Positions 5,550 to 22,951 of a stretch of 64,000 bases of DNA are shown one piece after another. The notes beneath the pieces are model-generated. The model saw only the letters and a program-made list of their open reading frames with translations. It made no database searches and was not told the origin of the DNA. Each line of letters opens with the position of its first letter. Position 1 is the stretch's first letter. The DNA is taken from NCBI GenBank assembly GCA_017466695.1, contig JAFTTR010000002.1:70837-134836 (forward strand), given 5' to 3'. The stretch is from Alphaproteobacteria bacterium (GTDB lineage: Bacteria; Pseudomonadota; Alphaproteobacteria; CAAHEQ01; UBA3637). A program made the position numbers and the translations under genes.

Positions 5550-6767
5550 CTATTGAAATCTTAATGCATCAATTGGATCCAATTTCATAGCTTTTATTGC
5601 CGGCATTAAACCAGATACAACACCCACAACCACAGCAACTGTTACAGAAATAACAACAGACCAAAGAGATATTGGAACCTGTTTTTCAAAAACAACTCCG
5701 GCTACTTGTGATCCCAGCACACCAACCACCATACCAACAAAACTCCCCATAAATGAAATCATCACAGATTCGGTTAAAAATTGAAGCATAATCCATTTAT
5801 TTGAAGCCCCCAAAGCCTTCCTTGTGCCAATTTCTCTTGTTCTCTCCGTTACAGAAACAAGCATCATATTCATAATCCCAATACTACCCACCAGCAAAGA
5901 AATTGAGGCAATCGACGCTAACAAAACAGACAAAGCAAAACCAACACTCCTAACTTTTTCAACCATATCTGTCATTAGCCTAACTGAAAAGTCATTAGCA
6001 ACCCCATCTTTTAAGTGATGTCTTGCTCTCAGTTGATATTCAATTCGATTAGCAACAGCCTCCATTTTATCTTCACTCACAGTTTTAACAAACGCTACAT
6101 TCGTATATTGTGGCCGAAACCCAGAGTGAATCCGTTGACGAAAAGTCGTTGCAGGCATCATCACAATATTATCTTGGTCATCCCCCATAAGGCCATCCCC
6201 TTTTTCTTTAAGCGTTCCAATAACAGTAAAAGGGCGACTTTTTAAACGAATAACCTTACCAATAGGATCTTGCAGACCGAACAATTCCTCAACAATTGTT
6301 TGTCCAATAACAACATAAGGACGCCCTGTTTTTAAATCTTTTTCACTAAACATAGAACCTTTATCAATTTCCCAATTACCAATTTCAAGATATTCAGGGG
6401 TAGTACCTGCCACACTCACCCCATAGTTGTTGGAACCATAAACAGCTTGTACAGCAAAGTTAACCAGATACGAAGCTGTCTTCACATCTTTTAAATTTTT
6501 TAAAGACTCAACATCATCAAAACTTACACTGGGCCTACCTCTACCACCTCGAACGCCTCCACTAACTGTTTCCCCAGGACCAATAATAATTAAATTTGTA
6601 CCCATAGAGTCAAATGTTTTTGTAATTTCATTTTGCACCGTTTGACCTGCTGCCACCATCATCACAACAGCTGCCACCCCAATTAAAATCCCCAGCATTG
6701 TCAAAAAAGTACGTAATTTGTAGGCACTAATTGAAATCCAAGACTCTTTTAATATCTGGTAAATCAT
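5550..6767 (-). CDS. ABC efflux permease, FtsX/MacB family (periplasmic core domain plus 4 TM)
   Basis: N-terminal TM, large periplasmic domain, C-terminal FtsX-like TM bundle; operon context with ABC ATPase, HlyD and TolC. Confidence 0.8.
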   Translation of the reverse strand: MIYQILKESWISISAYKLRTFLTMLGILIGVAAVVMMVAAGQTVQNEITKTFDSMGTNLIIIGPGETVSGGVRGGRGRPSVSFDDVESLKNLKDVKTASYLVNFAVQAVYGSNNYGVSVAGTTPEYLEIGNWEIDKGSMFSEKDLKTGRPYVVIGQTIVEELFGLQDPIGKVIRLKSRPFTVIGTLKEKGDGLMGDDQDNIVMMPATTFRQRIHSGFRPQYTNVAFVKTVSEDKMEAVANRIEYQLRARHHLKDGVANDFSVRLMTDMVEKVRSVGFALSVLLASIASISLLVGSIGIMNMMLVSVTERTREIGTRKALGASNKWIMLQFLTESVMISFMGSFVGMVVGVLGSQVAGVVFEKQVPISLWSVVISVTVAVVVGVVSGLMPAIKAMKLDPIDALRFQ

Positions 6768-7492
6768 TGTCCCTCCTTATTCAAATAGGCTGAACGAAGA
6801 CCATCATATTCTTTTCGCCCATCGTGAATTTTAATCATACGGTGCGCATAATCTGCCACATCATCCTCATGTGTTACCAAAACAATTGTAATACCTGCCT
6901 GATTGAGTTTTGAAAAAAGCGCCATAATTTCATCAGAAGTTTTGGTATCTAAATTCCCAGTTGGCTCATCTGCAAAAATAATAGCAGGATTGTTCACCAA
7001 AGCTCTTGCAATGGCAACACGTTGTTGCATACCCCCTGAAATTTGAGTTGGAAGTCTATCTTCATACCCTTTCAACCCCACAATTTTAAGCATTTCGACA
7101 GCTCTTTTATACCTTTCCTTTTCACCAACACCCTGATAAATCAAGGGTAAAGAAACATTATCAGCTATTGTTCGTTTCATCAAAAGGTTAAAGTTTTGAA
7201 ATACAAACCCTATTTCATGCCCTCTGATAAAAGCAAGCTCATTGTCCGTTTTTTGAGAAACAAGCTTCCCTGTTAAATAATACGCCCCTTTTGTGGGTCG
7301 ATCCAAACAACCCAAAATATTCATCAAAGTTGACTTACCAGAGCCAGAATGACCCATAATAGCTACAAACTCCCCTTTTTCAATTTTAAAAGAAACATTC
7401 TTGAGAACGGACTGGCTCATTCCACCAGCCATAAAATATGTCTTACATAAATCTTTCACCTCAATAACGGTTTCTTTTTGTTGTTTTGCCAT
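6764..7492 (-). CDS. ABC transporter ATP-binding protein (MacB/LolD-like ATPase)
   Basis: Walker [10 protein letters not shown]; signature [15 protein letters not shown]; Walker [13 protein letters not shown]. Confidence 0.9.
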
Positions 7493-8604
7493 TATTTTCG
7501 CCCACCTTTTTGAATGTATTCTGTAATGAATTGGTCGCCTTCTTTAAGTCCATCAACAACTTCAACATAAGAGGCATCCATAATTCCACGAGTAAAGACA
7601 AGAGGCACCACTTTGCCATCAATCAGTTGGTAGATAACCCCTTGATTAGCCTCTAAATCAAGTGTCACTTTGGGAACATATTTTCTAACCAATGCATTGG
7701 GTTTATATTGCAAAGCAGCCGTAGGAATACGAAGAACGCCTTCTTTATCATGAATAACAATTTGAACAAAAGCTGTCATCCCTGGCAATAACTTACGTGA
7801 AGAATTATCCACCTCAATCACAACCGTATACATCACAACATTTGACTCTTCGGTTGGGGATAATCTAATTTGTTTAACAACCCCGGAAAAAGCATCATTT
7901 GGGTAAGCATCCACCGTGAAAGAAGCTTTCATCCCAGATTGAATTGCTCCAATATCTGCTTCAGCAATACTCGCTTCAATTTGCATTTTGGACAAATCCT
8001 CAGCAATGGTAAATAACGTTGGTGTTTGAAGAGAGGCTGCTACTGTTTGACCTTGTTCCACTTCTTTGGAAATCACCGTTCCTGAAACAGGCGAAGTAAT
8101 TTTAGCATAGCCAAAATTACGTTCAGCCTTATTAAAATCAGCCGTTGCTGTTAAAACATCAGCTTCAGCTATGGCTAAATTAACCTCTGCTTCTTCCAAA
8201 GAGGCTTTGGCAATCAATTTATCTTTATAAAGTTTTTCATATCTTTTAAAGTTTAAATCAGCCACCTTCTTTTTCGCATAAGCTAAATCTAATCTAGCTT
8301 TGGCATCATTTTTATTCTCCGTTAAAACAGCCGTATCCAGCTCAGCTAAAAGTTGCCCTTCTTTGACTTCATCATTATAATCAACCAATACTCTTTCAAC
8401 AATTCCAGAAACTTGCGTTCCCACACTGACCGTATTAACTGGTTGAATTTTACCTGATGCCGTTACCTCTTCAACAATTCGACCCTTTTCAACTTTCATA
8501 ATTTCAAAATCTTGCTTTGTAAGGGCTTTTTCTTTTCCCCCTGAAAAAGCATATATCCCACCCCCAATTAATAGCACAATAATTAAAACGACCCACTTTT
8601 TCAT
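7492..8604 (-). CDS. Periplasmic adaptor (membrane fusion protein), HlyD/MacA family
   Basis: N-terminal anchor, coiled-coil segment, beta-barrel/lipoyl-like regions; overlaps neighbouring genes by 1 nt (operon). Confidence 0.8.
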   Translation of the reverse strand: MKKWVVLIIVLLIGGGIYAFSGGKEKALTKQDFEIMKVEKGRIVEEVTASGKIQPVNTVSVGTQVSGIVERVLVDYNDEVKEGQLLAELDTAVLTENKNDAKARLDLAYAKKKVADLNFKRYEKLYKDKLIAKASLEEAEVNLAIAEADVLTATADFNKAERNFGYAKITSPVSGTVISKEVEQGQTVAASLQTPTLFTIAEDLSKMQIEASIAEADIGAIQSGMKASFTVDAYPNDAFSGVVKQIRLSPTEESNVVMYTVVIEVDNSSRKLLPGMTAFVQIVIHDKEGVLRIPTAALQYKPNALVRKYVPKVTLDLEANQGVIYQLIDGKVVPLVFTRGIMDASYVEVVDGLKEGDQFITEYIQKGGRK

Positions 8605-9947
8605 TAAAACCTCCCTATGGCACGATACAAACTTGCCTTACTTGTTAACACGGCATAATAAGCTACAATAACTTCCTTTCTCGCATTAGATAGCTGTGAA
8701 CCGGCTGTCAATAAATTCAAAATATCCCCTTTACCAACTTGATATGAAGCAAAAGCCACTCGTTCATTTTCAACAGCACTTTCCAGCGCTTTTTTGCTAA
8801 TTTCATAAGAAGAAACAGCCGTTTTATAATTGTGATAAGAAGTCCAAACCTCATTTTTAACCATTTCAATCATTTCTTCTTTTTGTAAAAGAGCTTTTTC
8901 CTTTTGCGCCTCAGCCTCTTTCACATTATATGTTACTGAAAAGCCAGAAAAAAGAGGAACAGAAACATTCAACCCAATACTTGAGGAATAATCAAAATTA
9001 TTCCTTTCTTTAAAATCATCCCCATAACCGGAAGATGCTGTTAAAGAAATGGTTGGCATATGCATTGATTTCAAGGCTTTTACATTTTCAGTAGCTGCTA
9101 AAATATCTTTGTCAGCTTTTTGAATTTCAGGTCTGAGCCCTATCGCTGTTTCAATCATTTTATCAACACTCATCCCTTGCATGGAAAGTTTTGTCAAATC
9201 CCTATCATTTTTAGGTTTTAATAGGTTAAAATCAGTCGTTGGGGAAACATTTAATAAAACAGCTAATTTACCTTGATTTGTTTTAACCTGATTTTCAGCT
9301 TGAACAACATCTAATCTTGATTCTTCATAACTTGTTTTAGCAAGCAATTTATCACTTAAAGAAACAAGACCTAACTCATAACGTCTTGAAGATTCCTCAT
9401 ACGATTTTTTAAAACTTGCTTCACTTGTTTTGGCGCTTTTTAAAACCTCTTGGGCACTGAGTAAATCAAAATAAGCCTTATTAATTTCTAAAAAAGTATC
9501 TTTGATTTGAGCATTGTATTCAAACCCTGAAGATAACATATAATTTTCAGCCCTCTTCACACGAGCAGAACGGCCCCCAAAATCATAGAGCATCCACGAA
9601 AGAGCCGCATTCAAACGATAAGGATTAGCGGCATTCGAATTAAAATCTTCCACCTTATTATATGTATCTTCCATTGCACCTTTTAAAGTAACACTTGGCA
9701 AATACTCTGCTTTAGAGGCACCCAAAGAAGCCTCTTTTGCCTTCACTTCCATATACCCTCTATTTAAAGTCGGATTATTACAAAGCCCAATTTCTAACAA
9801 TTCAGGCAATCCCATAGGGCCTTTTAAAATATCTTTATCCACACAATTTTCTGGTGCTTTTTGTTCAAAAACATGAAAGGGATCCATGGCCTGCGCCACC
9901 CCTGAAAAACAAATTATACCCATACCTAATAAGAAAATTTTGCGCAT
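8604..9947 (-). CDS. Outer membrane efflux protein, TolC family
   Basis: Signal peptide MRKIFLLGMGIICFSGVAQA; two repeated OEP-like halves; first gene of the operon. Confidence 0.8.
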   Translation of the reverse strand: MRKIFLLGMGIICFSGVAQAMDPFHVFEQKAPENCVDKDILKGPMGLPELLEIGLCNNPTLNRGYMEVKAKEASLGASKAEYLPSVTLKGAMEDTYNKVEDFNSNAANPYRLNAALSWMLYDFGGRSARVKRAENYMLSSGFEYNAQIKDTFLEINKAYFDLLSAQEVLKSAKTSEASFKKSYEESSRRYELGLVSLSDKLLAKTSYEESRLDVVQAENQVKTNQGKLAVLLNVSPTTDFNLLKPKNDRDLTKLSMQGMSVDKMIETAIGLRPEIQKADKDILAATENVKALKSMHMPTISLTASSGYGDDFKERNNFDYSSSIGLNVSVPLFSGFSVTYNVKEAEAQKEKALLQKEEMIEMVKNEVWTSYHNYKTAVSSYEISKKALESAVENERVAFASYQVGKGDILNLLTAGSQLSNARKEVIVAYYAVLTSKASLYRAIGRF

Positions 9948-10120
9948 TTTTAACTCCTCACATGAAGGTTAACGAATATCCCCACCTAAATGTTCAAAAA
10001 AACTCTCTCGATAGTAGTACACCTTCCAAATCAAGTCAATATTTTTTTGATTTTTAATAAAAACACTTGTATTTAAAAATAAGTTCCTATAAACTATTAT
10101 TCTTGAAAAGGAGATATGAT

Positions 10121-10507
10121 ATGATTGGTGAAATTACAAAGAAAGTGGAAGCTTTAAATAAACTTAAAGAAACGGCAAATAATCCAAAAATTTTATGGGA
10201 AGAAATGCAAATTGTTGCTGACAAATCTTTTCAACTACAAGAAGATATATTAGCCCTTATTCAGCAAGCTGAAGAAACAGAAAAGAACATTGCTGCACTT
10301 CAATCGCTTTTTGAAACAAGAGAAATGGTTTGGGATATCATTGATGAAATTGCTGCGCTTGAAATAAAATCAAAAGAAAAAGCTCATAAAAAACAATCAA
10401 AATGTGCCTCAAAAAAAAGTTGTCCTGACAAAAAATGTGATTGCCATCATTCCTCTCATGAAGCCCAAGAAGAATGTCATAGCTCCTGTTGCTGCCACAA
10501 ACATTAA
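10121..10507 (+). CDS. Small coiled-coil protein with Cys/His-rich C-terminal tail (putative metal-binding), hypothetical
   Basis: AAGGAG RBS 7 nt upstream of ATG 10121 (the ORF-track start at 10067 is less likely). Tail KCASKKSCPDKKCDCHHSSHEAQEECHSSCCCHKH. Confidence 0.5.
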   Translation: MIGEITKKVEALNKLKETANNPKILWEEMQIVADKSFQLQEDILALIQQAEETEKNIAALQSLFETREMVWDIIDEIAALEIKSKEKAHKKQSKCASKKSCPDKKCDCHHSSHEAQEECHSSCCCHKH

Positions 10508-10522
10508 AGGAGAAGAACTTAT

Positions 10523-10771
10523 ATGACAAATAGTTTAGAAAATCTCTCTTTTGAAGAAGCCATGCAAGAACTAGAACAAGTTGTTCGCCAACTTGAAACA
10601 GGCAAAGTGAAGTTGGAAGATGCTGTATCAGCTTATGAAAAAGGGGTCGCACTTAAAAATATTTGCGAAGAAAAATTAAAAAATGCTAAATCAAAAATTG
10701 ACTTATTGGTAATTGGTGATAACAACACTCCTATTGCAACGGAAGATTTTGATGACAACATTAACAAATAG
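10523..10771 (+). CDS. xseB: Exodeoxyribonuclease VII small subunit
   Basis: LSFEEAMQELEQVVRQLETGKVKLEDAVSAYEKGVAL is typical of XseB; ~80 aa. Confidence 0.85.
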   Translation: MTNSLENLSFEEAMQELEQVVRQLETGKVKLEDAVSAYEKGVALKNICEEKLKNAKSKIDLLVIGDNNTPIATEDFDDNINK

Positions 10772-11642
10772 TTTGAGAAATGTTAGAAGCGAACTAGATA
10801 CTTATTTTAAAAACCATTTTCAAAATGAAATGGGGCTTCCCTCTGAAGTTCTTAAAGCCATGAGTTATTCCTTTATTGGAAAAGGAAAGGCATTAAGACC
10901 TTTTTTGGTTTTAACAGTTGCTGATATTTTAAATTTAGATAAACAATCAGCGTTGCAAATTGCACTTGCCATTGAAATGGTACACACCTACTCTCTTATT
11001 CATGATGATCTACCAGCTATGGATAATGATACCTTGCGAAGAGGGCAACCAACTTGTCATATTCAATTTTCTGAATCCACTGCCATTTTGGCTGGAGATG
11101 CTCTTTTAACACATGCATTTGAGGTTTTAGCTGATGAAAAAACACATCCCAATGCCCTTGTTCGTTGCCAATTAATTGCTTATCTTGCCAAAAGTGCTGG
11201 GGTTGAAGGGATGATTGGAGGGCAAGTCATGGACCTTCAAGGTGAAAAAATCCCCTTGATGGAAAATGAGATTTACAAAATGCAATCTATGAAAACCGGC
11301 GCTTTATTAAAATTTTCTTGCATTGCCCCTGCTATAGCAGCTCAAAAAAATCAAGAAACGATTGAAGCTTTAACCTCTTATGCCAACGCTATTGGTCTTT
11401 TGTTTCAAATAACAGACGATTTATTAGATGAAATAGGCTCAGAACAAGAAGTTGGTAAGACGCTCAAAAAAGACAAAAAAGCTGGTAAATCAACATTTTT
11501 AAATCTCTATGGTATTCAAAAAACAAGAGAACTTGCTCTTGAGATGCATCAAAAAGCCTTACAAGCGTTAAATACGCCTATTTTAAAGGAATGTACTTTA
11601 CTCAAAGAGTTAGCCAACTTCATTTTAACAAGGACCTATTAA
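10752..11642 (+). CDS. ispA: Farnesyl diphosphate synthase (geranyltranstransferase)
   Basis: FARM LIHDDLPAMDNDTLRRG and SARM FQITDDLLD motifs. Start taken at MTTLTN, a 20-nt overlap with xseB. Confidence 0.88.
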   Translation: MTTLTNSLRNVRSELDTYFKNHFQNEMGLPSEVLKAMSYSFIGKGKALRPFLVLTVADILNLDKQSALQIALAIEMVHTYSLIHDDLPAMDNDTLRRGQPTCHIQFSESTAILAGDALLTHAFEVLADEKTHPNALVRCQLIAYLAKSAGVEGMIGGQVMDLQGEKIPLMENEIYKMQSMKTGALLKFSCIAPAIAAQKNQETIEALTSYANAIGLLFQITDDLLDEIGSEQEVGKTLKKDKKAGKSTFLNLYGIQKTRELALEMHQKALQALNTPILKECTLLKELANFILTRTY

Positions 11643-12287
11643 ATGGCATTGATGAAAAAGAATGAACTGAAACTTTTTTTAGACAAACTGTTTGAAGTCT
11701 ATCCCAATCCACGCTGTGAATTAAACTATATCAATCACTTCACTTTACTTGTTGCTATTATTTTATCGGCCCAAAGCACGGATAAAGGGGTTAACAAGGT
11801 AACTGAAAAGCTTTTTCCTGTCGCCTCAACACCTGAAGAGATGCTTTTGCTTGGGGAAGAAAGATTAAAACAATATATCCGTTCGATTAACTACTTTAAT
11901 AATAAGGCAAAATCCATTATTAAATTAGCTCATCAACTCATTGAGAACTTCAATGGGCAAATCCCCACTGATTTTGAAACACTCAAAACTTTAAGTGGTG
12001 TTGGGCAAAAAACAGCTAGTGTTTTTTTAAATGTTGCCTATCATGCTCCCTTTATTGGCGTTGATACCCACGTTTTTCGCCTGTGTCATCGGCTTAATAT
12101 TTGTAAGGGGAAAGATCCAAGCGCTGTTCAAGAAAAATTACAAAAAATCATTCCAGCAAGCTATCAACCAGATGTTGCTTTGGCGCTTGTCTTTCATGGG
12201 AGATATGTTTGCACAGCAAAACGACCAAAATGCGCAACATGCCCTTTAAAGGATGTCTGCACTGCAATTGAAAATAAGGAGATATAA
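11643..12287 (+). CDS. nth: Endonuclease III
   Basis: HhH-GPD LSGVGQKTASV; C-terminal 4Fe-4S loop CTAKRPKCATCPLKDVC. Confidence 0.9.
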   Translation: MALMKKNELKLFLDKLFEVYPNPRCELNYINHFTLLVAIILSAQSTDKGVNKVTEKLFPVASTPEEMLLLGEERLKQYIRSINYFNNKAKSIIKLAHQLIENFNGQIPTDFETLKTLSGVGQKTASVFLNVAYHAPFIGVDTHVFRLCHRLNICKGKDPSAVQEKLQKIIPASYQPDVALALVFHGRYVCTAKRPKCATCPLKDVCTAIENKEI

Positions 12288-13873: not shown

Positions 13874-14989
13874 ATGAAAACAACATTATTTCTTTTTTTA
13901 ATATTAGCGACAACTTCTTTTACAGCAAGAGCAACTTTGCAGGATTTAGCAAGCGAATATTCACCCATTCAACCGATTAAAGAAATTGCTCAAAAAACAA
14001 TTGAGTTATCTGGTGCACTTTCTGGAACACTTGAAAAAAGCCCTACAGCCATTCTGCAAGAACAGCTAAATGAGGCTTTTGATGATGATAAAATGCTGGC
14101 TTTTTATTTATCCACGCCAAAAGAAAAACGCCAATATCTTTTTCCAATGATACATATAGCGCCTTTTATTTCACATAAAATTAAATCCCATCCAGAAATT
14201 TTGTTTTATAAAAATAAACAACCAACCATTATTGCCCCTAGGTTGCAAGAATTTGCAAAAAAACATTTGAACGACCTTTCCCCTTACTATTACAATTATT
14301 TAGATCCTGAGTTTTGGCAAAAAACACCTCAAGAAGAACTTTGCAATCCTGAAATGGTACAACAAGAAAGAGCCCCAGCTTTGAAAGAAAAAGGACCAGA
14401 TTATGTCTATCCAACAATTAGGGAAATCTTTAATCTCGCTGGAAAAGATGCAAAAGATTATTTTAAAACCAGTCTCACAAGTGATGATTTAGCAAAATTT
14501 TCATCTGTTATTGCTGACTTAGAATCTTTCACCCCTGTTCATTTTGAAAAAGATAACCTGATTGTTTTTGTTTCCAAATACTCAAAGAATCAACCCTTTA
14601 GGTATATCGGTGATCCTTTCTTAATGTATCTTTTTACACTTGAAAAATTAGATGAAAGAGAAAATTTTGACGCCTTTGTTCAAAAACATGGGTTCAAAGA
14701 TGGGCAAGATTTTGCCTTAAAAGCTGATAAGATTGTTAAGGCTTATAATGCCTTGACGCTTCATTTGTTAATTGCCTCTTACATCACCCAACATAAAGAA
14801 GGCAAATCCATTAAACAACCTACCAGAGAGGACTTTGGGGCACCAGATATTCACGTAATGGATATGTATACCAGAATGAATTCATCCACACCTGGAGATG
14901 TTTATTTTGTGAAAAAATATAAAGATCAAATTAAACCAATTTTAAAAACAAACTTTATCCAATATGGTATTATGTTTTATATTGACTAA
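13874..14989 (+). CDS. Hypothetical secreted protein (371 aa)
   Basis: Signal peptide MKTTLFLFLILATTSFTARA; no recognisable domain; very AT-rich. Confidence 0.45.
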   Translation: MKTTLFLFLILATTSFTARATLQDLASEYSPIQPIKEIAQKTIELSGALSGTLEKSPTAILQEQLNEAFDDDKMLAFYLSTPKEKRQYLFPMIHIAPFISHKIKSHPEILFYKNKQPTIIAPRLQEFAKKHLNDLSPYYYNYLDPEFWQKTPQEELCNPEMVQQERAPALKEKGPDYVYPTIREIFNLAGKDAKDYFKTSLTSDDLAKFSSVIADLESFTPVHFEKDNLIVFVSKYSKNQPFRYIGDPFLMYLFTLEKLDERENFDAFVQKHGFKDGQDFALKADKIVKAYNALTLHLLIASYITQHKEGKSIKQPTREDFGAPDIHVMDMYTRMNSSTPGDVYFVKKYKDQIKPILKTNFIQYGIMFYID

Positions 14990-21021: not shown

Positions 21022-21714
21022 TTATGCCGTATATAACCCCTCTTTAATCAACCCCTCTTCGACACGAATTTGCTTATCCATCTGCAATGCTAAATCAGGG
21101 TTATGTGTTGCAATCAATGCCGATAATTTTGTTTCTTTCACTAAATTTAAAAGCGTTTGAAACACACCACTTGCCGTACTAGGGTCCAAATTTCCAGTTG
21201 GCTCATCTGCTAATAAAATAGCTGGGTTGTTTGCCAATGCTCTTGCAATGGCAACACGTTGTTGCTCACCCCCTGAAAGTTGCCCTGAGCGATGTTTTAA
21301 TCGGTGTTTTAATCCCACTAACTCCAGCAATTCTTCAGCTCTTTTTCTAGCAAGTTTTGGCTTTTTCCCTTCAATTAGTTGGGGAAGCATCACATTTTCA
21401 AGCGCATTAAAATCTGGCAATAACAAATGGGATTGATAAACAAAACCAATGGCCTTTCGTCTCAAAAGAGTGCGTTCTTTATCTAAGGCATGAGATACAT
21501 CAACGCCATTTACAAAAATTTCACCACCCGTAGGCGTATCCAACAGCCCTGCAATATGAAGGAGTGTTGATTTTCCAGAACCAGAAGGACCAACAAGAGC
21601 CACAATTTCCCCTTTTTGAAGTGTAAAGTTAATATCTTTTAAAACCTCAAGTTTCGTTTCTTTATCGCCATAAAAACGGCTCACATGTTTTAATTCTAAA
21701 CAAGGATTATTCAT
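21022..21714 (-). CDS. lolD: Lipoprotein-releasing system ATP-binding protein
   Basis: [18 protein letters not shown]; [32 protein letters not shown]; paired and overlapping with the LolC/E permease gene. Confidence 0.85.
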
Positions 21715-22951
21715 ATCTTAATGCCTCCACAGGGTCAGTTTTGCTTGCTTTATAAGAAGGATAAAGTGTTGCAAGTAAGGATAAAGCTAAACTCATCACA
21801 ACAACAAGTGTCACTTCTGTCATATCCACTTTTGCTGGTAGGTGGGAAAGGAAATAAATTTCAGCCGAAAAAAGCTCTCTTCCTGATAATCCTTCTAAAA
21901 ACGTTTTTATCGCATCAATATTTTCACAAAACAACAAACCAAGAGCAAAACCTGCGAATGTTCCAACAACACCAACGGTTAATCCAGACATTAAGAAAAT
22001 CCGTTGAATAGCACCACGGCTCATCCCCATTGTACGTAAAACTGCAATATCTTTTGTCTTATCTTGCACAAGCATAATCAGCCCTGAAATCATATTAAAA
22101 GCAGCCACAATAATAATGAGCGTTAAAATTAAAAACATAACATTTCGCTCAACTTCAATGGCATTAAAAAAGGCTTGATTTGTATATCTCCAATCATGGA
22201 TTGTAGCATCTCTTCCAATTTTTGAAAATGCATTTTCTGCAATTTTTTCATAATCGGCGCCTTTGTTTGTAAATACTTCAAGATGAGAAACTTTATCCCC
22301 TGTCATGAAGAATTTTTTCGCCTCGTCAAGGGGCATGAAAAGAAAATTGCCGTCATATTCACTCATACCACTATCAAAAGTTCCTAAAACCGTATATGCC
22401 TTCATTTTAGGAATTGTGCCAAATGCTGTTATATTTCCTTTAGGTGAAACCAATGATACTTGATCTCCAGCTCTTACCCCTAACCTTCTGGCCAAACGAT
22501 AACCTAAAATAATTTGGCTATCTAAAAACTCATTGATATCTATGCCTTTATATTTTCCACCTAATAAAGGCCTTTTTTTAAAATCCTCAAGACTCATCCC
22601 TCTAACCATAACCCCAGCTGAGGCCATATCAGAGGAAAGCATAACCTGCCCATCCACCACAGGTACAACATGGGTAATATCTTTAATGGATTGCATTGTT
22701 TTAGCCTTTTCTTCGCCATCAGACAAATATGGACCATAAGAGGGATAAACTCCTAATTGCCCATTAATACCAAGAACACGACTTAAAAGCTCTTCTTTAA
22801 ACCCATTCATCACACTCATTACAATAATAAGCGTTGCAACACCTAACATAATCCCTAAAAATGAAAACCCTGCAATAACAGAGACAAAGCCGGTTCTTTT
22901 TCTAGACTTTAAGTAGCGAAAAGATAACATTCTTTCTGTTTTTGAAAACAT
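21707..22951 (-). CDS. lolC: Lipoprotein-releasing system permease LolC/LolE (FtsX family)
   Basis: 414 aa; N-terminal TM, periplasmic domain, C-terminal FtsX TM bundle; upstream of lolD with an 8-nt overlap. Confidence 0.8.
   Translation of the reverse strand: MFSKTERMLSFRYLKSRKRTGFVSVIAGFSFLGIMLGVATLIIVMSVMNGFKEELLSRVLGINGQLGVYPSYGPYLSDGEEKAKTMQSIKDITHVVPVVDGQVMLSSDMASAGVMVRGMSLEDFKKRPLLGGKYKGIDINEFLDSQIILGYRLARRLGVRAGDQVSLVSPKGNITAFGTIPKMKAYTVLGTFDSGMSEYDGNFLFMPLDEAKKFFMTGDKVSHLEVFTNKGADYEKIAENAFSKIGRDATIHDWRYTNQAFFNAIEVERNVMFLILTLIIIVAAFNMISGLIMLVQDKTKDIAVLRTMGMSRGAIQRIFLMSGLTVGVVGTFAGFALGLLFCENIDAIKTFLEGLSGRELFSAEIYFLSHLPAKVDMTEVTLVVVMSLALSLLATLYPSYKASKTDPVEALRYE

What the first reader, a model, noticed from the sequence alone, without database searches (positions are those of the whole stretch)
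10067..10507. Small coiled-coil protein with an extremely Cys/His-rich C-terminal tail upstream of xseB-ispA
There is a 129-aa ORF with a proper AAGGAG RBS. Its N-terminal ~95 aa are predicted alpha-helical and coiled coil (heptad-like EALNKLKE...ILALIQQAEETEKNIAALQSLFE). Its C-terminus is KCASKKSCPDKKCDCHHSSHEAQEECHSSCCCHKH, which is 9 Cys and 6 His in 35 residues. Such tails are typical of metallochaperone or metal-storage tails, zinc-ribbon-like anti-sigma or anti-adaptor proteins, or redox sensors. It is not part of any canonical xseB operon that I know. It could be a metal-sensing regulator or a nickel/zinc-binding protein.
Basis: seen in the sequence. Interest (0 to 1): 0.5.

Follow-up and report, generated by a model that had tools for sequence, protein, structure and literature searches.

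The report
Metal-tail small protein paired with xseB
This is a real, conserved but unnamed 128-residue protein of uncultured gut Alphaproteobacteria: a compact three-helix bundle followed by a floppy cysteine/histidine-rich tail that looks like a metal-binding tail. Its gene always sits directly in front of the DNA-repair gene xseB, and its function is still untested.

Summary
The ORF is real. The CDS is ATG 10121 to TAA 10507 (128 aa), with a conserved GAAAAGGAG ribosome-binding site and a promoter-like site. The tail has 8 Cys, not 9, plus 6 His in the last 35 residues.

The first 90 residues are under strong purifying selection (dN/dS 0.08-0.20). With a 34-sequence alignment, AlphaFold2 gives a confident three-helix bundle (pLDDT 97-98), not a long coiled coil. 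The tail is disordered.

An exhaustive profile search of 1.84 billion representative proteins finds only 36 related clusters. Those with a source name are called hypothetical protein. There is no Pfam, NCBIfam or PDB match.

The bundle carries invariant R67, E68 and W71. The tails vary from 0 to 96 residues. In 28 of 34 members they are about 16% Cys and 14% His, rich in CC, CCC and CxC and almost free of CxxC. That is metallothionein-, Hpn- or HspA-like, not a zinc finger.

In 11 of 11 sampled members, including two without a tail, xseB starts within 29 nt either side of the stop codon, while other neighbours vary.

Best reading: a cytoplasmic bundle protein with a metal-binding (Zn, Ni or Cu) tail, co-expressed with xseB and nth. 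The metal role rests on analogy only. The reason for the xseB link is unexplained.

The parts
10067..10095 (+). Promoter-like site: -35 TTGTAT (10067-10072), 17-nt spacer, -10 TAAACT (10090-10095)
   Evidence: This block is conserved in the upstream regions of four orthologous loci (ACTTGTATTT...TATAAAC/AT). The hexamers and spacing were read directly from the sequence. The consensus scan reported other hexamer pairs here, TTTAAA/TTAAAA-N16-17-TATTAT, and found no more promoter-like sites in the region than in shuffles. This promoter is inferred, not shown.
10105..10113 (+). Ribosome-binding site GAAAAGGAG, 7 nt before the ATG
   Evidence: Identical in the window, L007, L008 and L009.
10121..10507 (+). 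CDS of the 128-aa protein (the stop codon TAA 10505-10507 is included)
   Evidence: Translation. The exact protein is on 13 contigs and equals NCBI MBQ8250372.1, 'hypothetical protein'. The family has 36 representative clusters.
10121..10399 (+). N-terminal domain (residues 1-93): acidic, Cys-free three-helix bundle with the motifs NPKILWEEM and R67-E68-x-x-W71-D72
   Evidence: AlphaFold2 with 34 sequences gives pLDDT 97-98 and helices 2-19, 26-53 and 57-99. R67, E68 and W71 are invariant. dN/dS is 0.08-0.20. In the 34-sequence family alignment, the domain up to the KEK motif (window residues 1-87) has mean net charge -6.
10400..10504 (+). C-terminal tail (residues 94-128): 8 Cys, 6 His and 6 Lys in 35 residues, ending in CCCHKH
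   Evidence: Residue counts. In the 34-sequence AlphaFold2 model, helix 3 runs to residue 99 (block 91-100 has pLDDT 72). Residues 101-128 have block means of about 50, and 113-119 fall below 50. In the 11-sequence model, residues 94-128 were all below 50. Positions are variable but composition is conserved across the family.
10523..10771 (+). xseB (exonuclease VII small subunit), starting 15 nt after the stop codon
   Evidence: PF02609 at 1.9e-18 and NCBIfam equivalog models. It lies immediately downstream in 11 of 11 family contexts.
10752..11642 (+). ispA-like polyprenyl (farnesyl) diphosphate synthase. The start is approximate.
   Evidence: PF00348 at 4.9e-54. Gene calls in L001. This gene is absent between xseB and nth in L022.
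11643..12287 (+). nth-like HhH-GPD DNA glycosylase (endonuclease III type), in the same gene string
   Evidence: Precomputed Pfam HhH-GPD and HHH hits on the orthologous genes.

Best explanation
The gene encodes a small cytoplasmic protein made of two modules.

**Module 1, residues 1 to about 93.** This is a strongly conserved, acidic, cysteine-free three-helix bundle. It is the constant core of a small family found so far only in metagenomes and MAGs, most of them labelled uncultured Alphaproteobacteria. The window is about 36% G+C.

**Module 2, residues 94-128.** This is an intrinsically disordered tail rich in Cys, His and Lys. Across the family it varies freely in length and sequence but keeps about 16% Cys and 14% His, arranged as CC, CCC, CxC and HH clusters.

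**Most likely mechanism.** In the reducing cytoplasm, the thiolates and imidazoles of the tail chelate several soft or borderline metal ions (Zn(II), Ni(II), Co(II) or Cu(I)). The protein would then act as a metal buffer, store or donor, in the manner of metallothioneins, Helicobacter Hpn and HspA domain B, the SlyD tail or CooJ. The bundle would provide solubility, possible oligomerisation and a docking surface for a partner.

The gene has its own promoter-like site and ribosome-binding site, and it heads a conserved string: orf, xseB, (ispA), nth.

**Shown here**
- The gene is real and under purifying selection.
- The fold prediction for the bundle, and the composition and disorder of the tail.
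- The limits of the family.
- Invariant adjacency to xseB.

**Inferred, not tested**
- Metal binding, and which metal.
- Cytoplasmic location, inferred from a hydrophilic N-terminus with no signal peptide.
- Co-transcription with xseB.
- Any partner of the bundle.
For: **The gene is real**
- The exact protein is on 13 contigs, with homologues at 60-91% identity.
- dN/dS is 0.08-0.20 in the N-domain, and the ribosome-binding site is conserved.

**Architecture**
- AlphaFold2 on alignment A3 gives pLDDT 97-98 for residues 1-90 and pTM 0.69, with three helices. The tail scores about 50.
- The hydrophobic profile has a polar break at residues 48-56, which fits three helices.

**The tail**
- 8 Cys and 6 His in 35 residues, against a background of 0.8% and 1.9% (P about 3e-10 and 4e-5).
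- 28 of 34 family members have tails with at least 2 Cys. Pooled, these tails are 16.2% Cys, 14.2% His and 16.5% Lys+Arg.
- Motif counts in the pooled tails are CC 91, CCC 31, CxC 75 and CxxC only 7.
- Positions do not align between members, while the N-domain has almost no Cys.

**Experimentally studied analogues**
- HspA domain B has 4 Cys and 8 His, binds 2 Ni per monomer, ends in HDHKKH, and functions in Ni storage and detoxification (PMC5116745).
- CooJ is a 12.6-kDa protein with 16 His in its C-terminal domain and binds 4 Ni per monomer (PMC6006190).
- TrxA of Runella is a folded domain fused to a metallothionein domain. It binds heavy metals and raises metal tolerance (PMC13578184).
- Tails of more distant members, for example ...HHCCCGGHAHDGECCGSHAHNEECCGGH..., resemble the EEGCC motifs of Hpn and the SlyD tail. 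This comparison is from my own memory of those sequences.
Against: - No metal-handling gene was found near the gene, among the 42 window ORFs scanned against Pfam or in the gene calls of the fetched loci. This covers hyp, ure, coo, znu, nik, cop and czc genes and the regulators Zur, NikR and CsoR.
- No conserved operator-like palindrome lies at the promoter. The palindrome at 10065-10084 is broken in L008 and L009.
- Six of 34 members have no Cys in the tail. Two of these were checked in context and still keep the bundle and the xseB linkage. The family's core function therefore cannot depend on the metal tail.
- The one constant neighbour is a DNA-repair gene, which a pure metal-buffer role does not explain.
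- Tails also carry many Lys residues, so binding of polyanions is an alternative.
- All evidence for metal binding is compositional analogy.
Confidence: 0.45

Rival explanations
1. The protein is a lineage-specific accessory factor of exonuclease VII or XseB. The three-helix bundle would bind XseB, or the assembled XseA-XseB complex, as a holder, assembly factor or regulator. The Cys/His/Lys tail would be a secondary add-on: a metal or redox switch, or a contact with DNA. This can be true alongside a metal-binding tail.
For: - xseB lies immediately downstream in 11 of 11 sampled members spanning 25-91% identity, from a 29-nt overlap to a 29-nt gap. This includes the tail-less P0040 and P0042.
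- Meanwhile the upstream neighbours change (macAB-tolC, a PLD-like gene, a response regulator, RNHCP, an HTH gene), and ispA can be missing.
- In Firmicutes, the slot before xseB is held by xseA (established knowledge, from memory).
- XseB is a helical hairpin that grips helices of very different sequence through a few hydrophobic positions (PMC10835039).
- nth follows in the same string, and polA is nearby.
Against: - There is no sequence or profile similarity to XseB (hhalign probability 0.5%) or to E. coli XseA.
- The N-domain is predicted as a closed bundle, not a free helix for XseB to wrap.
- Both the N-domain (mean net charge -6) and this clade's XseB (-4 to -8) are acidic. In E. coli, the XseA-XseB interface has complementary charges.
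- The family is a narrow clade, so part of the 11 of 11 may be inherited synteny.
- No interaction test was possible.
Confidence: 0.2
2. The protein binds nucleic acid or another polyanion. An acidic bundle carries a basic Lys/His-rich tail that contacts DNA or RNA, and may shield DNA from metal-catalysed damage. This would fit its place in a DNA-repair gene string.
For: - Pooled tails are 16.5% Lys+Arg. Cys-free members keep short basic tails such as PPKRKGKK and KSLKSKGKTDESK.
- The neighbours are xseB and nth, with polA nearby.
Against: - Mean tail net charge is only +1.6, ranging from -7 to +8.
- P0040 and P0042 have essentially no tail, 5 and 3 residues.
Confidence: 0.08
3. The protein is a RiPP precursor. 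A long conserved leader (residues 1 to about 90) would be followed by a hypervariable Cys-rich core peptide, which is modified and then exported by the divergently transcribed MacAB-TolC-type pump.
For: - The pattern of a conserved N-terminal part and a hypervariable Cys-rich C-terminal part is the one seen in Nif11- or NHLP-type precursors (the comparison is from memory).
- An ABC exporter with an outer-membrane factor is divergently adjacent in most loci.
Against: - No radical-SAM, LanM, cyclodehydratase, MNIO or C39-peptidase gene appears in any of the loci.
- No GG or GA cleavage motif is present.
- Tail-less members exist, and the 'leader' folds as a stable bundle.
- The pump is absent from several contexts, while xseB never is.
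- The cores are highly charged (Lys, Glu, Asp, His), which is unlike known RiPPs.
Confidence: 0.03
4. The protein is a structured zinc-finger, anti-sigma (ZAS), DksA/TraR-like or redox-sensing regulator.
For: Only the high Cys and His content.
Against: - Cys spacing is not conserved even among orthologues at 60-90% identity.
- CxxC is nearly absent, and no HxxxCxxC or paired CxxC motif was seen.
- The tail is predicted to be disordered.
- No sigma factor or regulator is an immediate neighbour.
- No Pfam or NCBIfam hit was found.
Confidence: 0.03

Closest known systems
Helicobacter pylori HspA (GroES) domain B and Hpn/Hpn-like nickel-storage proteins
   Same: Both have a short, flexible C-terminal Cys/His-rich segment appended to, or standing beside, a folded protein. 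HspA domain B has 4 Cys and 8 His, binds 2 Ni per monomer and ends in ...HDHKKH. The window protein ends in ...CCCHKH (PMC5116745). Family tails with ECCG and HHH runs recall the EEGCC motifs of Hpn (from memory).
   Different: The folded part is unrelated: a three-helix bundle rather than GroES. The tail is richer in Cys than His and has CCC runs. No urease, hydrogenase or NikR context is present. No metal-binding data exist.
CooJ (Rhodospirillum rubrum CODH nickel accessory protein)
   Same: Both are small proteins of about 12-14 kDa with a helical N-terminal domain and a metal-rich, disordered C-terminal tail. CooJ has 16 His in its tail and binds 4 Ni per monomer (PMC6006190). The helical, coiled-coil nature of the CooJ N-domain is from my memory of the 2019 structure paper.
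   Different: Profile searches against PDB sequences returned no CooJ, or any other significant match. No cooS, cooC or cooT context is present. The tail is dominated by Cys rather than His.
Metallothionein-type fusions (e.g. the Runella TrxA thioredoxin-metallothionein chimera) and the E. coli SlyD C-terminal tail
   Same: Both are a folded domain plus a Cys-rich, low-complexity extension that binds several metal ions (PMC13578184; SlyD from memory).
   Different: The folded domain is different. This is not a canonical SmtA/BmtA-type bacterial metallothionein fold. The fixed pairing with xseB has no counterpart.
PhoU domain (PF01895) three-helix bundles
Exonuclease VII subunits XseA and XseB
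   Same: Both are small helical proteins. The gene occupies the position directly upstream of xseB, which xseA holds in Firmicutes operons (from memory). XseB forms three-helix bundles with a partner helix (PMC10835039).
   Different: No detectable homology to either subunit. The protein is predicted to form its own three-helix bundle.

Membership tests
Cys/His-rich metal-binding tails (metallothionein-like; Hpn, HspA domain B, SlyD tail) | A very high density of Cys and His in a short, low-complexity, disordered segment | tested here: met
   8 Cys and 6 His in 35 residues, against a background of 0.8% and 1.9%. Tail pLDDT is about 50 or lower.
Cys/His-rich metal-binding tails (metallothionein-like; Hpn, HspA domain B, SlyD tail) | Composition, not position, is conserved among relatives; CC and CxC clusters rather than CxxC knuckles | tested here: met
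   28 of 34 members have Cys-rich tails. Motif counts are CC 91, CCC 31, CxC 75 and CxxC 7. The tails cannot be aligned between members.
Cys/His-rich metal-binding tails (metallothionein-like; Hpn, HspA domain B, SlyD tail) | Demonstrated binding of several metal ions per chain | not testable with these tools
   This needs ICP-MS or ITC on recombinant protein.
Cys/His-rich metal-binding tails (metallothionein-like; Hpn, HspA domain B, SlyD tail) | Genomic or regulatory link to metal enzymes, transporters or metal regulators | tested here: not met
   No such gene was found near the gene, among the 42 window ORFs scanned against Pfam or in the gene calls of the fetched loci. No conserved operator was found.
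CooJ | Sequence homology to CooJ and a location in a cooS/cooC/cooT cluster | tested here: not met
   Profile searches against all PDB chain sequences gave no significant hit. No coo genes are present in any context.
PhoU domain (PF01895) | Match to the family profile | tested here: not met
   None of the 34 members hit PhoU in Pfam at E up to 0.1. hhalign against an alignment of six PhoU sequences gave probability below 1%.
PhoU domain (PF01895) | A three-helix bundle with a conserved E(D)XXXD motif in the third helix | tested here: inconclusive
   [not shown]
XseB (PF02609) | Match to the Exonuc_VII_S profile, or to this clade's own XseB | tested here: not met
   No Pfam or NCBIfam hit. No BLASTP alignment. 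hhalign probability is 0.5%.
XseA helical domain | Similarity to XseA | tested here: not met
   BLASTP and hhalign against E. coli XseA found nothing. XseA did not appear in the PDB profile searches. The clade's own XseA could not be retrieved.
Zinc-finger, ZAS anti-sigma or DksA/TraR-type regulators | Conserved HxxxCxxC or paired CxxC ligands, and a sigma-factor or RNA-polymerase context | tested here: not met
   No Cys positions are conserved except the terminal CCC among close orthologues. CxxC is rare. No sigma factor or regulator is adjacent; the housekeeping rpoD lies about 25 kb away.
RiPP precursor | A neighbouring modification enzyme or leader peptidase | tested here: not met
   None was found in any fetched locus. 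Tail-less members exist.
CaaX-type lipidation signal | A Cys exactly four residues from the C-terminus | tested here: not met
   Between 0 and 11 residues follow the last Cys across the family.

The most novel reading that the evidence does not exclude
The three-helix-bundle protein is a previously unrecognised, lineage-specific third component of the exonuclease VII system. It would dock on XseB, or on the XseA-XseB complex, and its Cys/His tail would act as a metal- or redox-responsive switch, or as a DNA-proximal metal trap. This would couple ExoVII and EndoIII repair to metal or oxidative stress in anaerobic gut Alphaproteobacteria.
Probability: 0.12. Interest if true: 0.7.

Novelty: new variant of a known kind. 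Interest (0 to 1): 0.38.

Why it matters
If the tail binds metal, this is a new small family of bacterial metal-buffering proteins, built on a fold family with no existing annotation. It occurs in a poorly known group of uncultured animal-gut Alphaproteobacteria.

The more interesting point is the unbroken pairing with xseB. Exonuclease VII has been regarded as a two-subunit enzyme. A conserved, co-translated partner of XseB would hint at lineage-specific regulation or assembly of that enzyme.

Neither role is established. As it stands, the finding is a well-defined, testable 'hypothetical protein' family, not a surprise.

Tried and rejected
- **Family libraries.** Pfam, NCBIfam, PADLOC and PHROGs gave only noise.
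- **PDB sequence profiles.** Searches with alignments A1 and A3 found nothing significant.
- **XseB paralogue idea.** Rejected: no BLASTP alignment and hhalign probability 0.5%.
- **XseA remnant idea.** No support from E. coli XseA.
- **PhoU homology.** The motif coincidence is there, but probability is below 1%.
- **Search for xseA.** None was found in the window or in the fetched loci.
- **JGI metagenome scan.** The NPKILWEEM DNA pattern gave 0 hits. The search for related loci with A3 failed because no block was conserved enough.
- **Metal-regulator operator.** The palindrome at 10065-10084 is not conserved in L008 or L009.
- **RNHCP neighbour.** The Cys-rich RNHCP protein next to the tail-less P0042 looked like a possible split-off tail, but it is absent next to the tail-less P0040.
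- **CaaX or host-lipidation idea.** Rejected, because the distance of the last Cys from the C-terminus varies.

Full report
**Observation**

The region holds a genuine ORF. The ORF listing starts it at TTG 10067, the finding's start. The biologically sensible start is ATG 10121, 7 nt after AAGGAG (10108-10113), with the stop at TAA 10505-10507, giving 128 aa.

Eighteen other proteins of the window average 0.8% Cys and 1.9% His. Such a tail therefore has binomial P of about 3e-10 for Cys and 4e-5 for His.

xseB follows 15 nt after the stop codon (10523-10771; PF02609 at 1.9e-18, NCBIfam equivalogs). Then come a polyprenyl synthase (ispA-like), an HhH-GPD glycosylase (nth-like) and a DUF2207 protein. 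A TolC-like gene and macA/macB-like genes are transcribed divergently upstream.

**Is it a gene?**

Yes, on four lines of evidence:
- The identical protein is on 13 public contigs. It equals NCBI MBQ8250372.1, 'hypothetical protein [Alphaproteobacteria bacterium]'.
- A word-indexed search found ten homologues at 60-91% identity.
- Three more loci came from species-representative genomes, all MAGs labelled Alphaproteobacteria.
- Across four orthologues, GAAAAGGAG is identical and an upstream block (ACTTGTATTT...TATAAAC) is conserved. I read this block as -35 TTGTAT, 17 nt, -10 TAAACT.

Nei-Gojobori dN/dS is 0.08-0.20 for codons 1-88. In the tail, dS is saturated and dN is higher.

The window is 36% G+C. 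GcrA downstream fits an alphaproteobacterium. The rest of the window is housekeeping: polA, dnaG, rpoD, aspS, mreB, PBP2, rodA, prfA, efp and others.

**Size and shape of the family**

An exhaustive hmmsearch with the profile against 1.84 billion representative proteins returned only 36 clusters at E up to 1e-3, of which 29 were at E up to 1e-10.

In a 34-sequence alignment (A3):
- The first 90 or so residues align throughout. R67, E68 and W71 are invariant. D72, L12, L15 and E51 are nearly invariant, and there is a frequent NPKILWEEM motif.
- After a KEKT(H) motif the sequences become unalignable.
- Tails run from 3 to 96 residues. 28 of 34 have at least 2 Cys, and up to 22.
- Pooled, those tails are 16.2% Cys, 14.2% His and 16.5% Lys+Arg. 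Motif counts are CC 91, CCC 31, CxC 75, HH 49 and CxxC only 7.
- Six members have no Cys in the tail. Their tails are either very short or short and basic.
- The N-domain is essentially Cys-free and acidic, with mean net charge -6.

No member matches any Pfam family consistently. NCBIfam, PADLOC and PHROGs were searched with the window protein or a few members and gave only noise. Two profile searches of all PDB chain sequences found nothing significant.

**Structure**

With only 11 close sequences, AlphaFold2 drew one long helix. Fold searches with that model gave nothing, or generic coiled coils.

With the 34-sequence alignment the prediction became confident and different. pLDDT is 97-98 over residues 1-90 and pTM is 0.69, with helices at 2-19, 26-53 and 57-99. 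This is a three-helix bundle. The tail scores about 50.

The column-wise hydrophobicity profile agrees. It shows three hydrophobic stretches separated by N20-K23 and by a polar stretch at 48-56.

**Context**

I looked up the encoding contigs for the window protein and ten increasingly distant members, down to 25% identity.
- In 11 of 11, xseB is the next gene. Its start ranges from a 29-nt overlap to a 29-nt gap relative to the stop codon. In one case (P0038) I identified it by translating the cut-off downstream ORF.
- This holds for two tail-less members, P0040 and P0042.
- The upstream neighbour varies: macAB-tolC in most, but also a PLD-like gene, a response regulator, an RNHCP protein or an HTH protein.
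- In one locus, ispA is missing between xseB and nth.

The constant association is therefore with xseB, and usually nth, not with ispA or the efflux pump. Part of this may be inherited synteny within one clade. Even so, persistence at 25-40% identity while the flanks rearrange suggests co-expression, and possibly a functional tie.

I found no homology to XseB or to E. coli XseA. No xseA lies in the window or in the fetched loci. Whether these genomes encode XseA could not be checked.

**Mechanism**

The tail's properties are those of metal-binding tails that have been studied experimentally. These properties are extreme Cys and His density, disorder, conserved composition with free positions, CC, CCC and CxC clusters, and a cytoplasmic location. 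The location is inferred from a hydrophilic N-terminus.

The studied examples are:
- H. pylori HspA domain B: 4 Cys and 8 His, 2 Ni per monomer, ends in HDHKKH, functions in nickel storage and detoxification (PMC5116745).
- CooJ: a 12.6-kDa protein with a His-rich C-terminal domain that binds 4 Ni per monomer (PMC6006190).
- A thioredoxin-metallothionein chimera that binds heavy metals and raises tolerance (PMC13578184).
- Hpn and SlyD, which I cite from memory.

I therefore commit to this reading: a three-helix-bundle protein with a multi-ion metal-binding tail, acting as a cytoplasmic metal buffer or donor. My confidence is about 0.45 for the statement as a whole, and about 0.6 for 'the tail binds metal'.

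The weak points are these:
- No metal-related neighbours or operator were found.
- Lys is abundant in the tails.
- Tail-less members keep the bundle and the xseB link, so the family's core function lies in the bundle and is unknown.

**Rival readings**

The main rival, or complement, is that the bundle is an XseB or ExoVII accessory factor. XseB is a hairpin that grips helices of varied sequence to make three-helix bundles (PMC10835039). However, the bundle here is predicted to be closed, both proteins are acidic, and no interaction test could be run.

Readings as a zinc finger, an anti-sigma factor, a RiPP precursor or a CaaX lipidation target fail their defining features (and the context calls).

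**Novelty and verdict**

The protein is deposited only as 'hypothetical protein'. Its N-domain belongs to no described family, and the pairing with xseB has not, to my knowledge, been described. Two full-text searches found nothing relevant.

The tail is a familiar kind of feature. I rate this a new variant of a known kind: a folded domain plus a Cys/His-rich metal tail. Interest is moderate (0.38), and most of it comes from the unexplained and testable link to exonuclease VII.

Noticed in passing
L022 (JGI 3300042659 Ga0466733_127178; protein P0033 = NCBI MDR2902260.1): The contig is labelled 'Lactobacillales bacterium'. It nevertheless carries the same orf-xseB-nth-DUF2207-DUF4139 string as the alphaproteobacterial MAGs, so it is probably mis-binned.
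   Followed up: partly
window 13874-14989 (+): This 371-aa ORF has a hydrophobic, signal-peptide-like N-terminus and no Pfam match. Its gene follows the DUF2207 gene in the identical-protein loci L001-L004 and L006, and an ORF of similar size holds that position in L007-L009. More distant loci have a DUF4139 protein in that position.
   Followed up: no
window 21022-22951 (-): A second ABC ATPase plus a MacB_PCD/FtsX permease pair, possibly LolCDE-like, in addition to the macAB-tolC-like cluster at 5550-9947.
   Followed up: no
window 10065-10084: A 20-bp imperfect palindrome, ACTTGTATTTAAAAATAAGT, overlaps the putative -35 of the gene. Its right arm is changed in L008 and L009, so it is probably not a conserved operator.
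   Followed up: yes
window 10028-10053: A conserved block, GTCAATATTTTTTT, lies in the divergent intergenic region. On the minus strand it reads TTGACT, which the scan pairs with TACTAT as a promoter-like site for the tolC/macAB-like operon.
   Followed up: partly
L016 326-652 (+): Next to the tail-less family member P0042 sits a 108-aa Cys-rich RNHCP-domain protein. I considered it as a possible separately encoded 'tail'. It is absent next to the other tail-less member, P0040, so this is probably coincidence.
   Followed up: yes
[not shown]
   Followed up: partly
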